A stretch of 32,000 nt of DNA from Patescibacteria group bacterium (GCA_041649575.1 JBAZMW010000001.1:60001-92000), one strand, 5' to 3'. Positions 1,863 through 6,216 are shown, numbered from the stretch's first letter. Numbers and translations: made by a program. The notes: generated from the letters alone by a model not told the origin.

Positions 1863-2309
1863 ATGGAACAAATAGTAGTACCACAATTTTTAGACGTCGA
1901 AGACAAGATTATCGGTCCGATAACCGTGCGTCAGTTTATCGAAATGATGATTGGCGGTTTGCTTTGCTTCATCTTTTATAAACTGTTTGATTTTTCACTT
2001 TTTGCTGTGGCTTCGCTCTTGGTGATTCTGGTCACTCTGGTCATCGCTTTTGTCAAAATAAACGGCCAACCCTTTCATTATTTTTTGTTGAATTTTTTTG
2101 GCACCGTCAAAAATCCCAAATTGAAAGTTTGGCGCAAAGACGTGACGCTGGCCGATATCAGGGCGCTAGAGGCCAAACAGCCGGTGACCAAGCCGCCAAC
2201 GGTGGCGGGAACAAGGCAGATACTCACCACTTCCAAAATATCGGAGCTGTCTTTGATTGTTGATACCGGCGGTGTCTATCGCGGCGAGGAAAAGCTAGCT
2301 ATTAAATAA
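1863..2309 (+). CDS. PrgI/VirB3-like small membrane protein of T4SS-type loci
   Basis: The N-terminus 'VPQFLDVEDKIIGPITVRQFIEMMIGGLL' followed by two hydrophobic helices matches my recollection of the PrgI family signature. The gene sits 13 nt upstream of the VirB4-type genes. Confidence 0.5.
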   Translation: MEQIVVPQFLDVEDKIIGPITVRQFIEMMIGGLLCFIFYKLFDFSLFAVASLLVILVTLVIAFVKINGQPFHYFLLNFFGTVKNPKLKVWRKDVTLADIRALEAKQPVTKPPTVAGTRQILTTSKISELSLIVDTGGVYRGEEKLAIK

Positions 2310-2322
2310 TTTATTTAGTTTT

Positions 2323-3006
2323 ATGGCTTCAAGAGTAGCTAATAAAAAAACCCCAGCCACCCAAAGGCATCTACATATTGTAGAAGTCAGAGACGATTGC
2401 GTGGTAATGAAAGACGGCAGCTTAAGAGCCGTACTGCTGGTGTCGAGTATAAATTTTGCCCTGAAGTCAGAGGACGAGCAAAATGCCATCGTGGCCGGTT
2501 ATATGTCGTTTTTGAACTCTTTGGATTTTCCAATTCAGATGGTGGTGCAGTCCCGGCAACTTGATTTGGATGAATATCTGGCGGAAATAAAAAATGCCGA
2601 AGACAACCAGACCAATGAGCTGCTAAAGTTGCAAACAGCGGAATATCGCCAATATATCACGGAACTGGTTTCGCTGGGCGATATTATGACCAAAAGATTT
2701 TTTGTGATCATACCTTATGACCCTCTGTCCAACAAAAAACGGACTTTTTGGCAGAGAACGACCGACGTTTTGTCGCCAACCAGCATTATTAATTTGAAAG
2801 AGAAGCAATTTATCAAACGAAGAGAGGATTTGTTGTTGAGGATCGACAAGGTGATTTCCGGATTGTCCAGTATGGGACTAAGAGCGTCGCTATTAAATAC
2901 CCAGTCACTAATAGAGTTGTACTACAGCACCTACAATCCGACGATTTCCAGAAGCGAGAAAATGGTTGATACTAATAAATTAAGAATCGAAGAAAATTTT
3001 TTATAA
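2323..3006 (+). CDS. VirB4/TrsE N-terminal-like protein (227 aa), same frame as the downstream ATPase
   Basis: 'HIVEVRDDCVVMKDGSLRAVLLVSSINFALKSEDEQNAIVAGYMSFLNSLDFPIQMVVQSR' resembles the N-terminal region of Gram-positive-type VirB4 proteins. It ends at TAA 3004-3006, 3 nt before ATG 3010, in the same reading frame. Confidence 0.5.
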   Translation: MASRVANKKTPATQRHLHIVEVRDDCVVMKDGSLRAVLLVSSINFALKSEDEQNAIVAGYMSFLNSLDFPIQMVVQSRQLDLDEYLAEIKNAEDNQTNELLKLQTAEYRQYITELVSLGDIMTKRFFVIIPYDPLSNKKRTFWQRTTDVLSPTSIINLKEKQFIKRREDLLLRIDKVISGLSSMGLRASLLNTQSLIELYYSTYNPTISRSEKMVDTNKLRIEENFL

Positions 3007-3009
3007 AAT

Positions 3010-4914: not shown

Positions 4915-4941
4915 CTTTTAACTTTTTAAATTAATAATTTT

Positions 4942-5511
4942 ATGGACAACAAAAGAAGAATAGTCATAGTCGTTTTGGCAATAGTAGTGTTGATAATTCT
5001 AGTGATAATCTGTTGGTGGATTTTGAAAAATAATTTTGGTCGCCAGGGCACAGTCAACTTGAATACCAATGTTAACAGGCCGTTGACCGAGAGAATCCAA
5101 CAATTGCCGCCGCCGACCGCCGAAGAAATAGCCGAGGAAAAAAAATACCCCCTAGGCATGAAGCAACTGGCCTATTCTTTTGCCGAAAGATTTGGTAGCT
5201 ATTCCAACTTGACAGTCAACAAAAATCTAAACGACTTGAGAGGTCTGATGACCGTTAAGATGCAAGCAGAAACCGATAAAGTGATTGACCAGACCTTTAC
5301 GGCGCCAGCCAGTTATGATGGTTATGATACCAGGGCCTTAGAGAGCGAACTTTTGTATCTAAAAGACAATGAAGCCAGTATTTTAATTAAAACGCAAAGA
5401 TCTCACTATTTAGAAAAGGAAAGTCAGCCAGAAGTTTATTATCAAAATTTACAGCTTAAAATGGTAAAAGTGGGCGAAGAATGGAAGATTGACGAGGCCA
5501 AGTGGCAGTAG
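4942..5511 (+). CDS. N-terminally anchored small protein, possible VirB8/PrgL-like (NTF2-like) component
   Basis: Single N-terminal TM 'IVIVVLAIVVLIILVIICWWIL', a ~150-aa ectodomain ending 'LQLKMVKVGEEWKIDEAKWQ', and a position right after virB4. The functional call rests on architecture only. Confidence 0.3.
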   Translation: MDNKRRIVIVVLAIVVLIILVIICWWILKNNFGRQGTVNLNTNVNRPLTERIQQLPPPTAEEIAEEKKYPLGMKQLAYSFAERFGSYSNLTVNKNLNDLRGLMTVKMQAETDKVIDQTFTAPASYDGYDTRALESELLYLKDNEASILIKTQRSHYLEKESQPEVYYQNLQLKMVKVGEEWKIDEAKWQ

Positions 5512-5541
5512 GGAGCTCTTTTAAATTTAAGAAGAAATTTA

Positions 5542-6216
5542 ATGTTTGAAGATATTGGGCAGATAAAGGGTTGGCTGGAGGATTTGTTGTTTCCCAAGAG
5601 TTGTGTTAATTGCCGACAGGAGAAGAGCTGGCTTTGCGGTGAATGTACAAAATTATTAAAGGCCGTTGCGATGAATTTGGGCTCTCATGTTTTTGACAGC
5701 GGTAATCATTTAGAAAAATTATGGGCTTTGACCGATTATAACGATCTGCTGGCGCAAAAAGTGATTCAGGCCATTAAATATAATTTTATTAAAGAGTTGG
5801 TTTGTAGCTTCGACAGTCTGATTGTGGAAATGGAAAAGATAATACCCGCCTGGTCTAGGGAATTCGTTTTATTGCCGGTTCCTCTGCACCAGAAACGTCT
5901 CTCCTATCGAGGATTTAATCAAGCGGAATTAATCAGCGAGAGAATAAGCCGGCTACTAGGCAACCCTTTAGGCGACAAAATTTTAAAGAGAAAAATTTAT
6001 ACCAGGCCACAGGTTGGTCTAAGCCAAGCGAAGCGCCGGGAAAATATCAAAGGAAGTTTTTTATTGGATAATAAAGTCGAGTGGCGCTTCCCTAGAAATA
6101 ATGTGGTTTTGATTGACGATGTCTACACGACCGGAGCGACAATGGGGGAGTGTGCCGAAGTTTTACAAAAGGCAGGATTTACAAACATCAAAGGACTGGT
6201 AATAGCTCATGGTTGA
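5542..6216 (+). CDS. comFC: ComFC-type competence protein (phosphoribosyltransferase-like)
   Basis: N-terminal double CxxC 'CVNCRQ...CGECTK'. C-terminal PRTase motif 'VVLIDDVYTTGATMGE'. Size 224 aa. Confidence 0.85.
   Translation: MFEDIGQIKGWLEDLLFPKSCVNCRQEKSWLCGECTKLLKAVAMNLGSHVFDSGNHLEKLWALTDYNDLLAQKVIQAIKYNFIKELVCSFDSLIVEMEKIIPAWSREFVLLPVPLHQKRLSYRGFNQAELISERISRLLGNPLGDKILKRKIYTRPQVGLSQAKRRENIKGSFLLDNKVEWRFPRNNVVLIDDVYTTGATMGECAEVLQKAGFTNIKGLVIAHG

What the first reader, a model, noticed from the sequence alone, without database searches (positions are those of the whole stretch)
1863..6216. Minimal T4SS-like module next to ComFC, recG and radA: candidate DNA-uptake or host-contact apparatus
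PrgI/VirB3-like, VirB4(N)-like, VirB4 ATPase and a VirB8-shaped anchored protein are packed with 3-33 nt gaps and run straight into comFC. recG follows, and radA plus two VirB2-like pilin genes sit about 5 kb away on the other strand. I found no relaxase, VirD4-type coupling protein, VirB9/10/11 or mobile-element boundary in the window. This does not look like a conjugative element. The pairing with competence and recombination genes suggests a chromosomal, ComB-like (Helicobacter-type) DNA-import use of a stripped-down T4SS, or a contact apparatus in an episymbiont. A separate type IV pilus locus in the same window argues that the two machines are not redundant.
Basis: partly seen in the sequence, partly recalled or inferred. 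Interest (0 to 1): 0.7.

Follow-up and report, generated by a model that had tools for sequence, protein, structure and literature searches.

The report
Known CPR-type chromosomal type IV secretion locus
This is the chromosomal, non-conjugative type IV secretion system typical of ultrasmall Patescibacteria (class ABY1), and its position next to comF, recG and radA was already published in 2025, so the finding is real but not new and its cargo is still unknown.

Summary
PrgI/VirB3, a TrsD-like VirB4 N-domain protein, VirB4, a membrane-anchored 189-aa protein, ComF, RecG, RadA and two VirB2-like pilins all lie at the stated coordinates, with 3-33 nt gaps. A confident model of the 189-aa protein shows a transmembrane helix plus an NTF2-like domain that matches VirB8 proteins (CagV, PrgL, TraH). 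No sequence-level VirB8 match exists.

The system is not minimal. The window cuts it off. An extended VirB6-like membrane protein lies just upstream on the source contig. Pilin-like proteins fused to cell-wall hydrolase domains, and a beta-propeller protein, also belong to it.

Eighty species-level relatives (Buchananbacteria/Falkowbacteria-like genomes) keep the core block. ComF follows it directly in only 31 of 68 informative loci; RadA, or DsbA then RadA, follows in 33. A Kerfeldbacteria locus shows that a single inversion of about 11 kb put comF next to the core.

No relaxase, coupling protein or integrase occurs in about 39 kb. Quinonero-Coronel et al. 2025 already describe this system and its comF/recG/radA neighbourhood in ABY1. 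In Saccharibacteria the homologous system is essential while ComEC, ComF and DprA are not. DNA import therefore remains an open, already published hypothesis.

The parts
1..331 (+). 3' part of a 311-aa conserved cytoplasmic protein, cut by the window edge. Its N-terminal ~77 aa are paralogous to the next gene.
   Evidence: full gene at L081 6387-7322. BLASTP 36% identity, E 2e-11 against the 489-aa protein. It is conserved upstream of the module in many relatives.
360..1829 (+). 489-aa conserved orphan protein. It has three all-alpha domains joined by disordered linkers. It always precedes prgI.
   Evidence: Present in 72 related loci. No Pfam or NCBIfam hit. AF2 pLDDT 76.8. No PDB match by sequence or by fold.
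1863..2309 (+). VirB3-like PrgI family membrane protein (2 TM segments)
   Evidence: PF12666, 35.7 bits, above the 27-bit cut-off. TM segments. Conserved in all loci that cover the position.
2323..3006 (+). TrsD-like protein: a VirB4 N-terminal-domain homologue encoded as a separate ORF
   Evidence: NCBIfam: VirB4_plasma positions 104-233 (3.5e-11), TrsD (2.3e-8), CD1110 positions 18-105. Precomputed Pfam PF26593 TraC-like. It is a separate ORF in all relatives.
3010..4914 (+). VirB4 ATPase (CD1110 / MPF-FATA type)
   Evidence: conju_CD1110 8e-101, 338.5 bits, above the 325 cut-off. P-loop_TraG and AAA_10. PDB 4ag5 at 1.3e-48 and TrwK at 3e-8. Walker A at 287 and Walker B at 495.
4942..5511 (+). 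VirB8-like bitopic protein: N-terminal TM helix, linker, NTF2-like domain
   Evidence: AF2 pLDDT 89.6. Foldseek hits: CagV 6iqt (TM 0.69-0.70), PrgL 7aed, TraH 5aiw, Rickettsia VirB8 4o3v, TcpC 3ub1, R388 8rtd_Y. Always directly after virB4. The family has about 2,000 representatives at the 50% identity level.
5542..6216 (+). ComF-family protein (ComFC-like): zinc ribbon plus PRTase fold
   Evidence: TIGR00201 comF 5.6e-32, GntX 1.1e-24. DZR_2 and Pribosyltran. Cys at 21/24/32/35.
6390..7444 (+). tRNA-Ser(GCT) 6390-6483, tRNA-Ser(TGA) 6720-6806, a 170-aa two-TM protein 6837-7349, and tRNA-Arg(GCG) 7369-7444. These are neighbours, not T4SS parts.
   Evidence: The 170-aa protein keeps its place between comF and recG in Kerfeldbacteria.
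7458..9512 (+). RecG helicase (neighbour)
   Evidence: RecG_wedge, DEAD, Helicase_C, RecG_dom3_C.
10296..11648 (-). RadA/Sms. It is the last gene of the pilin operon, 1 nt after the pilin stop codon.
   Evidence: Zn ribbon, AAA_25, ChlI/Lon_C. Gap. It is co-oriented after the pilins or the VirB8-like gene in relatives.
11650..12435 (-). VirB2-like pilin, 261 aa, with a Cys-rich C-terminal ectodomain (10 Cys)
   Evidence: PF18895 7.4e-9, 36 bits, above the 26.6 cut-off. Cys count.
12450..13631 (-). VirB2-like hairpin protein, 393 aa, with a C-terminal domain that is probably lysozyme-like (candidate VirB1 role)
   Evidence: PF18895 1.4e-9. The Phage_lysozyme hit is only 0.0076. Among 27 related pilin-like proteins, 6 carry SLT (best 1.1e-20), 2 carry Phage_lysozyme (best 3e-7), and others carry M15, glucosaminidase or SLT_2/3. 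Kerfeldbacteria has a pilin+SLT fusion.
13628..14350 (-). DsbA-like thioredoxin-fold membrane-anchored protein. It has one Cys where a CxxC motif is expected.
   Evidence: Thioredoxin_4 4e-28, DSBA 5.9e-18. Cys positions. Syntenic with the T4SS and radA in many loci.
14356..15594 (-). Membrane-anchored beta-propeller protein that travels with the pilin genes
   Evidence: Weak PD40/WD40 propeller hits. Adjacent to the pilins in L075, L077, L080 and Kerfeldbacteria.

Best explanation
The locus is the chromosomal Patescibacteria-type type IV secretion system, derived from monoderm MPF-FATA conjugation machinery. The host is an ABY1-class (Buchananbacteria-like) CPR bacterium.

Shown:
- The inner-membrane set is complete: an extended VirB6-like protein (just left of the window), VirB3/PrgI, a split VirB4 (TrsD-like N-domain protein plus ATPase), and a VirB8-like NTF2 protein.
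- A second operon encodes two VirB2-like proteins, a beta-propeller protein and a DsbA-like protein. Many pilin-like proteins at these loci in relatives are fused to a peptidoglycan hydrolase domain.
- No relaxase, coupling protein or integrase is nearby.
- The cluster is inherited vertically.

Inferred:
- VirB4 hexamers dock on VirB3/VirB6/VirB8.
- The hydrolase domain opens the cell wall.
- VirB2-like subunits form a pilus or pseudopilus that reaches the host cell. The machine then serves host-contact-dependent transfer needed for the episymbiotic lifestyle, as in Saccharibacteria, where the homologous system is essential and independent of ComEC, ComF and DprA.

On this reading comF, recG and radA are long-standing syntenic neighbours. 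The direct virB8-like-to-comF junction was created by a lineage-specific inversion. They are not proven parts of the machine.
For: - Family assignments.
- VirB8-like fold.
- VirB6-like: 13 of 44 orthologues hit Pfam TrbL (best 5.3e-7), and the protein is conserved upstream.
- Core block hyp489-PrgI-TrsD-VirB4-VirB8-like is present in all 80 relatives wherever the contig covers it.
- Pilins and the propeller protein sit directly after the core in L075, L077, L080 and Kerfeldbacteria.
- Inversion model: the Kerfeldbacteria order is core, pilin, propeller, pilin-SLT, radA(+), recG(-), 170aa(-), comF(-), clpB(-). This is the window order with the block from about 5.5 to 17.0 kb flipped.
- Housekeeping flanks and no mobile-element genes.
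- The best plasmid VirB4 is 34.5% identical.
- Literature: PMC12102498 describes this clade, the lack of relaxases and the comF/recG/radA neighbourhood in ABY1. PMC10633639 reports that the T4SS is essential while ComEC, ComF and DprA are not. PMC12857230 reviews the same points.
Against: - The cargo is unknown. No ABY1 organism is cultured.
- A DNA-transaction gene (comF, or radA with or without dsbA before it) is the next co-oriented gene after the core in 64 of 68 loci.
- radA ends the pilin operon with a 1-nt gap. That is more than I would expect for an unrelated passenger gene.
- The Saccharibacteria data come from a different class that lacks this gene linkage.
- The VirB8 and VirB6 assignments for this contig's own proteins rest on fold or on orthologues. 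Neither protein gives a direct family hit.
Confidence: 0.6

Rival explanations
1. This is a ComB-like DNA-import machine. The VirB2-type pilus or pseudopilus, powered only by VirB4, captures host or environmental DNA and brings it to the membrane. ComEC and ComF translocate and handle the single strand, and RadA and RecG process recombination intermediates. The gene linkage reflects this pathway.
For: - The system has no T4CP, VirB11 or relaxase nearby, like H. pylori ComB (PMC12857230).
- ComFC is required for ssDNA transport and handling in the ComB-using H. pylori (PMC9005727).
- comF or radA is the next, or next-but-one, co-oriented gene in 64 of 68 loci.
- radA ends the pilin operon.
- The authors of PMC12102498 propose functional coordination and DNA import.
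- From my own knowledge, not tested here: RadA is a competence-induced branch-migration helicase in pneumococcus.
Against: - The comF adjacency results from one inversion and is absent in Falkowbacteria- and Kerfeldbacteria-type loci.
- The whole region, including clpB and PPDK genes, is syntenic, so proximity is not specific.
- Tight gaps also link clpB and htpX to the operon.
- In S. epibionticum the T4SS is essential but ComEC, ComF and DprA are dispensable, and transformation depends on ComEC.
- A type IV pilus locus, the usual DNA-uptake pilus, is present in the same window.
- ComEC and DprA were not seen in the window.
Confidence: 0.27
2. This is a pilus-only adhesion device, like Bartonella Trw. 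The T4SS scaffold displays variable VirB2-like proteins with large ectodomains that bind host cells. Nothing is translocated.
For: - The pilin-like proteins are long (250-600 aa), with variable Cys-rich or enzymatic ectodomains around a conserved hairpin.
- The two paralogues share an identical 73-aa core but have unrelated flanks.
- Trw is a precedent.
Against: - The full VirB3/4/6/8 translocon set is retained.
- Several of the ectodomains are peptidoglycan hydrolases, not adhesins.
- A separate type IV pilus, which is implicated in adhesion in Saccharibacteria, is present.
Confidence: 0.1
3. This is an ordinary or decaying integrative conjugative element whose relaxase, coupling protein and integrase lie outside the window.
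For: - The VirB4 belongs to the conjugative CD1110/MPF-FATA lineage.
- tRNA genes, which are common ICE targets, lie beside the module.
- VirD4-like genes often sit far from virB4 in Patescibacteria (PMC12102498).
Against: - No such genes occur in about 39 kb of the source contig.
- The locus and its flanks are conserved across 80 species, and VirB4 identity falls from 82% to 69% roughly in step with the taxon labels of the records (Buchananbacteria-like highest, Falkowbacteria-like lower).
- GC content is uniform.
- Flanks are housekeeping genes in a complete genome.
- Only 109 relaxases were found in the Patescibacteria genome set analysed in PMC12102498.
Confidence: 0.03

Closest known systems
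Patescibacteria-clade T4SS (Quinonero-Coronel et al. 2025, PMC12102498; S. epibionticum SEML1_0006-0019, Wang et al. 2023, PMC10633639)
   Same: - The component set matches: VirB4, TrsD, PrgI/VirB3, VirB6 and VirB2-like pilins.
- It is chromosomal and has no relaxase.
- The ABY1-specific neighbourhood of comF, recG and radA is explicitly described.
- VirB8-like proteins are reported mainly in ABY1.
   Different: Nothing differs in kind. Added here:
- The VirB8-like protein is universal in these 80 loci and belongs to a family of about 2,000 representatives. The paper detected about 50 VirB8 homologues.
- The comF junction is explained by an inversion.
- Roughly 10 of 27 pilin-like proteins carry cell-wall hydrolase domains.
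Gram-positive conjugative MPF-FATA systems (pGO1 TrsC/D/E, pCF10 PrgI/J/L/H, CTn2 CD1110)
   Same: - VirB4 passes the CD1110 model.
- A separate TrsD-like protein is present, as in pGO1.
- PrgI is present.
- The VirB8-like fold resembles PrgL and TraH.
- There is no outer-membrane core complex.
   Different: - No relaxase or T4CP is nearby.
- VirB2-type pilins are present.
- It is chromosomal and vertically inherited.
- VirB4 is at most 34.5% identical to any plasmid VirB4.
Helicobacter pylori ComB DNA-uptake T4SS
   Same: - It is a T4SS with VirB4 as the only ATPase and no VirD4, VirB11 or relaxase.
- It has a VirB2-like subunit.
- It works with ComEC and ComFC, and a comF gene is adjacent here.
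   Different: - ComB is a diderm VirB-type system with VirB7/9/10.
- There is no evidence here for DNA uptake.
- The comF adjacency is lineage-specific.
Archaeal Ced DNA-import system
   Same: It is a relaxase-less, VirB4/HerA-like ATPase-driven import system.
   Different: Only generic P-loop similarity was found: CedB 42 bits against a cut-off of 700. No CedA-like proteins were identified.

Membership tests
Type IV secretion system (Patescibacteria / MPF-FATA clade) | VirB4-family ATPase with Walker A and B motifs | tested here: met
   conju_CD1110 338.5 bits, above the 325 cut-off. PDB 4ag5 at 1.3e-48. GAGKS at 287 and DEAW at 495.
Type IV secretion system (Patescibacteria / MPF-FATA clade) | VirB3/PrgI membrane partner encoded next to virB4 | tested here: met
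   PF12666 35.7 bits, above the 27 cut-off. Two TM segments.
Type IV secretion system (Patescibacteria / MPF-FATA clade) | TrsD-like VirB4 N-domain protein | tested here: inconclusive
   TrsD 34.1 bits against a cut-off of 200. VirB4_plasma N-terminal region 3.5e-11. Precomputed PF26593 TraC-like. It is homologous, but below the curated cut-offs.
Type IV secretion system (Patescibacteria / MPF-FATA clade) | Polytopic VirB6/TrbL-like channel protein | tested here: inconclusive
   The protein lies outside the window (L081 3192-6383). Its own sequence has no Pfam hit. It has about 8 TM segments. 13 of 44 orthologues hit PF04610 TrbL (best 5.3e-7). No PDB sequence match.
Type IV secretion system (Patescibacteria / MPF-FATA clade) | VirB2-type pilin(s) | tested here: met
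   PF18895 36.0 and 38.3 bits, above the 26.6 cut-off. 14 of 27 relatives also hit TrbC/VirB2.
VirB8 family | Sequence match to VirB8, PrgL or TcpC profiles | tested here: not met
   No hit for the protein, for 119 homologues, or for the profile against PDB.
VirB8 family | Bitopic topology plus an NTF2-like periplasmic/extracellular domain, encoded in a T4SS operon | tested here: met
   AF2 pLDDT 89.6. Foldseek hits CagV, PrgL, TraH, TrwG, TcpC and R388 VirB8, but generic NTF2 folds (PARC6, CaMKII hub) score similarly. It always follows virB4.
Conjugative element (ICE/plasmid) | Relaxase, type IV coupling protein and integrase/att boundaries | tested here: not met
   None found in the window plus 7 kb upstream, or around the locus in a complete Falkowbacteria genome or in Kerfeldbacteria. 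The whole genome could not be scanned.
ComB-type DNA-uptake T4SS | Requirement of the T4SS for DNA uptake or transformation | not testable with these tools
   This needs genetics or labelled-DNA uptake assays. In Saccharibacteria the T4SS is essential whereas ComEC/ComF/DprA are not, and transformation depends on ComEC.
ComB-type DNA-uptake T4SS | Conserved genetic coupling with com genes | tested here: inconclusive
   comF is adjacent in 31 of 68 loci, and radA or dsbA-radA in 33 of 68. The comF junction is explained by an inversion. ComEC and DprA are not in the window.
ComF (ComFC) family | N-terminal 4-Cys zinc ribbon plus PRTase domain; match to the comF model | tested here: met
   TIGR00201 5.6e-32 is the best family, but 111 bits falls below the 233 cut-off. 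Cys at 21/24/32/35. PRTase motif.

The most novel reading that the evidence does not exclude
In ABY1 Patescibacteria the chromosomal T4SS and its VirB2-like pilus act as a ComB-like importer of host DNA. The importer hands DNA to ComEC/ComF, with RadA (co-transcribed with the pilins) and RecG processing it. This would be the first T4SS-based DNA-uptake route in a monoderm or CPR bacterium, and a nucleotide/gene acquisition route for an episymbiont. A sub-point may not have been described: the VirB1 cell-wall-opening function is supplied as a domain fused to a VirB2-like hairpin.
Probability: 0.22. Interest if true: 0.75.

Novelty: already known. Interest (0 to 1): 0.3.

Why it matters
What the Patescibacteria T4SS transports is a real open question. 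In the one tractable species it is essential for epibiotic growth. If ABY1 members use it to import DNA, that would explain how bacteria without nucleotide synthesis feed and evolve. However, the system, its lack of relaxases and the comF/recG/radA linkage are all published, so this window adds one more instance and no discovery.

The increments from this analysis are useful for annotation and for designing tests:
- a large VirB8-like family that is detectable only by fold;
- the inversion that created the comF junction;
- the radA-pilin operon link;
- the pilin-hydrolase fusions.

Tried and rejected
- Sequence searches for VirB8 with the 189-aa protein, its 69- and 119-member alignments, and PDB profiles found nothing specific. 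Only the fold comparison worked.
- The 489-aa conserved protein gave no Pfam, NCBIfam, PDB-sequence or Foldseek match despite a usable model. I had hoped for a cryptic relaxase, coupling or DNA-binding domain, and none was seen.
- The TrsD-like protein had no PDB sequence match.
- The C-terminal domain of the 393-aa pilin had no PDB sequence match. Its lysozyme assignment rests on a sub-threshold Pfam hit plus clear hydrolase domains in relatives.
- The VirB6 candidate profile had no PDB match.
- Promoter and terminator scans gave no convincing operon boundaries inside the module. Terminator-like sites were no more frequent than in shuffled sequence (30 versus 23.0 ± 5.8). Promoter-like sites were more frequent than in shuffles (41 versus 23.6 ± 4.3), but none marked a clear boundary within the module.
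- No inverted repeats mark the inversion end points.
- Rfam found only the three tRNAs.
- The ICE hypothesis was considered and rejected. The Ced-like hypothesis was rejected on score.
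Full report
**What is in the sequence.** The window has uniform GC content (0.40-0.48) and a steadily rising cumulative GC skew. There is no compositional island. On the + strand, genes run at 1-331, 360-1829, 1863-2309, 2323-3006, 3010-4914, 4942-5511 and 5542-6216. The gaps between them are 28, 33, 13, 3, 27 and 30 nt.

- PrgI/VirB3: PF12666, above threshold.
- The 227-aa protein matches the N-terminal parts of VirB4 models and TrsD. 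Its precomputed Pfam label is TraC-like.
- VirB4 passes the curated CD1110 model at 338.5 bits against a 325 cut-off. It matches the Thermoanaerobacter VirB4 structure 4ag5 at 1.3e-48. Walker A and B motifs are intact.
- ComF family: TIGR00201 5.6e-32, with a four-cysteine ribbon and a PRTase motif.

Three tRNA genes and a 170-aa membrane protein separate comF from recG. RecG and RadA are unambiguous. Both pilin genes pass PF18895. A type IV pilus locus lies at 27.5-32 kb, with PilM, PilN/O-like genes and the start of a PilB-type ATPase.

**The 189-aa protein.** It has no sequence-level family, whether tested alone, as 119 homologues, or as a profile against PDB. A 119-sequence alignment gave an AlphaFold2 model with pLDDT 89.6. 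The model is an N-terminal transmembrane helix, a low-confidence linker, and then helices packed on a four-stranded curved sheet. Foldseek against the PDB returns these VirB8-type structures:
- CagV (TM-score 0.69-0.70 on the target, rmsd 3.1 A);
- PrgL, TraH, Rickettsia VirB8, TrwG, TraE, TcpC and OrfG;
- the full-length VirB8 of R388.

Generic NTF2-like domains (PARC6/ARC6, CaMKII hub) score alongside them. 'VirB8-shaped' is therefore right at the level of fold, topology and operon position. Membership by sequence is not met. A full HMMER search finds about 2,000 representative proteins at E <= 1e-10. That is far more than the roughly 50 VirB8 homologues detected by HMMs in the 2025 survey.

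**The system is not minimal.** The exact VirB4 protein maps to a 116-kb metagenomic contig. Immediately left of the window lie three more genes:
- a 3,865-aa giant protein;
- a 1,063-aa protein with about eight transmembrane segments and a long hydrophilic tail;
- the full 311-aa gene whose tail is window 1-331.

The 1,063-aa protein has no Pfam hit itself. Its membrane domain is conserved upstream of the module in about 45 relatives, and 13 of 44 orthologues hit Pfam TrbL/VirB6 (best 5.3e-7). It is an extended VirB6-like protein.

The 311- and 489-aa proteins share a paralogous N-terminal domain (E 2e-11). The 489-aa protein precedes prgI in 72 of the 80 related loci and in the Kerfeldbacteria locus, which covers nearly every contig that reaches that position. 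Its model has three confident all-alpha domains, but nothing in the PDB resembles it.

On the minus strand, p453, p412 (a beta-propeller protein), a DsbA-like gene, pilin-393, pilin-261 and radA are packed with gaps of -4 to 18 nt. In L075, L077, L080 and a Kerfeldbacteria genome, pilins and the propeller protein come next after the VirB8-like gene on the same strand (within 16 nt to about 0.9 kb). They therefore belong to the system.

Of 27 pilin-like proteins from these loci, all hit T4SS_pilin and 14 hit TrbC/VirB2. Six carry SLT domains (best 1.1e-20). Two carry Phage_lysozyme (best 3e-7). Others carry M15 peptidase, glucosaminidase or SLT_2/3 domains. The window's 393-aa protein has only a weak lysozyme hit (0.0076). 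A VirB1-type cell-wall hydrolase thus appears to be supplied as a fusion to a VirB2-like hairpin.

**Conservation and the comF junction.** A scan of species-representative genomes returned 483 confirmed relatives. The best 80 have 69-84% VirB4 identity. They are labelled Buchananbacteria, Falkowbacteria, Parcubacteria or Patescibacteria, and many carry mislabelled 'Gammaproteobacteria' MAG titles. All keep hyp489-PrgI-TrsD-VirB4-VirB8-like wherever the contig covers it.

Among 68 loci with enough downstream sequence, the next co-oriented gene is:
- comF in 31;
- radA in 20;
- dsbA followed by radA in 13;
- a pilin in 3.

In Candidatus Kerfeldbacteria the order is core, pilin, propeller, pilin-SLT and radA (all +), then recG(-), a methyltransferase(-), the 170-aa protein(-), comF(-, 33% identity, E 8e-36) and clpB(-). 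Flipping window positions from about 5.5 to 17.0 kb reproduces this order exactly. The direct VirB8-like-to-comF junction in the window is therefore the product of one inversion between the core and clpB.

The deeply conserved link is radA at the end of the pilin operon. The neighbourhood as a whole, including clpB and, in the Falkowbacteria- and Kerfeldbacteria-type loci, PEP-utilising/PPDK genes, is syntenic. Equally small gaps join htpX, clpB and p453. Tight spacing in this compact genome is therefore not evidence of shared function.

**Not a mobile element.** No relaxase, VirD4/TcpA-type coupling protein, VirB9/10/11 or integrase was found in the window or the 7 kb upstream. None was found around the locus in a closed Falkowbacteria genome or in Kerfeldbacteria. 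The best VirB4 on any of 72,556 plasmids is 34.5% identical, a CD1110-family protein from a Pontibacillus megaplasmid. A T4CP elsewhere in the genome cannot be excluded. Such genes are common in Patescibacteria but are rarely near virB4.

**What is already known.** Quinonero-Coronel et al. 2025 (PMC12102498) analysed 2,474 Patescibacteria virB4 genes. They report the following:
- They define a monophyletic clade related to MPF-FATA.
- They list VirB4, TrsD, PrgI/VirB3, VirB6 and VirB2-like pilins as widespread.
- They note that relaxases are nearly absent.
- They find VirB8 homologues almost only in ABY1.

Wang et al. 2023 (PMC10633639) showed that the T4SS and its pilin array are essential for epibiotic growth of S. 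epibionticum. ComEC, ComF and DprA are not essential there, and comEC is needed for transformation. A 2025 review repeats these points and compares ComB. ComFC is required for ssDNA transport and handling in H. pylori, which uses the ComB T4SS (PMC9005727).

**Most likely mechanism.**

Shown:
- the component inventory;
- chromosomal, vertical inheritance;
- the absence of nearby conjugation-specific genes.

Inferred from established T4SS biology:
- VirB4 hexamers, with the separate TrsD-like N-domain protein, dock on VirB3, VirB6 and VirB8-like proteins in the membrane.
- The hydrolase domain of the pilin-like protein opens the peptidoglycan.
- VirB2-like subunits form a pilus or pseudopilus toward the host.

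I favour a host-contact transfer role whose cargo is not yet known, with comF, recG and radA as syntenic neighbours (confidence about 0.6). The ComB-like DNA-import reading stays plausible at about 0.25, mainly because radA is consistently the terminal gene of the T4SS/pilin operon. An adhesion-only role scores about 0.1 and an ICE about 0.03.

**Verdict.** Novelty is 'already known', and interest is modest.

Noticed in passing
window 11993-12231 and 13045-13283: The two pilin genes share a 239-nt direct repeat at 95% DNA identity. It encodes a 73-aa identical VirB2-like hairpin core, while the N- and C-terminal ectodomains are unrelated. This looks like gene conversion or a recent core duplication with swapped ectodomains. 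The 2025 survey reported at most 54% identity within pilin arrays.
   Followed up: partly
window 12450-13100 (C-terminal half of the 393-aa pilin-like protein); L082 13024-14436; other loci in alignment A6: Many VirB2-like proteins in these loci are fused to peptidoglycan hydrolase domains (SLT in 6 of 27, Phage_lysozyme in 2, plus M15, glucosaminidase and SLT_2/3). This suggests a VirB2-VirB1 fusion. It may explain why separate VirB1 genes are rarely found near virB4 in Patescibacteria. The window's own hit is sub-threshold (E 0.0076).
   Followed up: partly
window 9528-10290 (between recG and radA): Two perfect sigma-70 consensus promoters (TTGACA/TATAAT) lie at 9528-9557 and 9958-9985. Each is followed by a small ORF: one of about 70 aa with a CxxC...CxxC motif, and one of 53 aa. 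The segment has higher GC and has no counterpart in the 80 related loci. It could be a small insertion or a regulatory or toxin-antitoxin-like pair.
   Followed up: partly
L081 1-6383 (source contig, immediately left of the window): A 3,865-aa giant Cys-rich protein and a 1,063-aa extended VirB6-like membrane protein precede the module. The C-terminus of the giant protein is conserved upstream in many relatives. It may be a surface protein or a substrate associated with the T4SS.
   Followed up: partly
window 1-331 and 360-1829: Two consecutive conserved proteins (311 and 489 aa) share a paralogous N-terminal domain of about 77 aa. The 489-aa protein models confidently as three all-alpha domains but matches nothing in Pfam, NCBIfam or the PDB.
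   Followed up: yes
window 21244-27460: Three consecutive secreted proteins (444, 1006 and 603 aa) are Cys- and Gly-rich, repeat-like and without Pfam families. They lie directly upstream of the type IV pilus genes and could be pilus-associated or surface adhesins.
   Followed up: no
window 13628-14350: The DsbA-like thioredoxin-fold protein in the pilin operon has only one cysteine (Cys98, in SFSCEYG) where a CxxC active site is expected. It may not be a standard disulfide oxidase, even though the neighbouring pilin ectodomains are Cys-rich.
   Followed up: no
window 15613-16974: A 453-aa protein has a long Lys/Glu/Asp-rich low-complexity region and C-terminal hydrophobic segments. The region has a strong AT skew (-0.46). 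The protein sits between clpB and the propeller/pilin genes and is found in only a few relatives (L008, L019).
   Followed up: no
window 6470-6535: A 33-nt-arm inverted repeat (85% complementary, no spacer) starts at the 3' end of tRNA-Ser(GCT). It is probably a terminator hairpin.
   Followed up: no
locus titles: Many of the closest genomes are deposited as 'uncultured Gammaproteobacteria bacterium' MAGs, yet they carry this Patescibacteria-specific locus at 70-81% VirB4 identity. Their record titles look taxonomically mislabelled.
   Followed up: no
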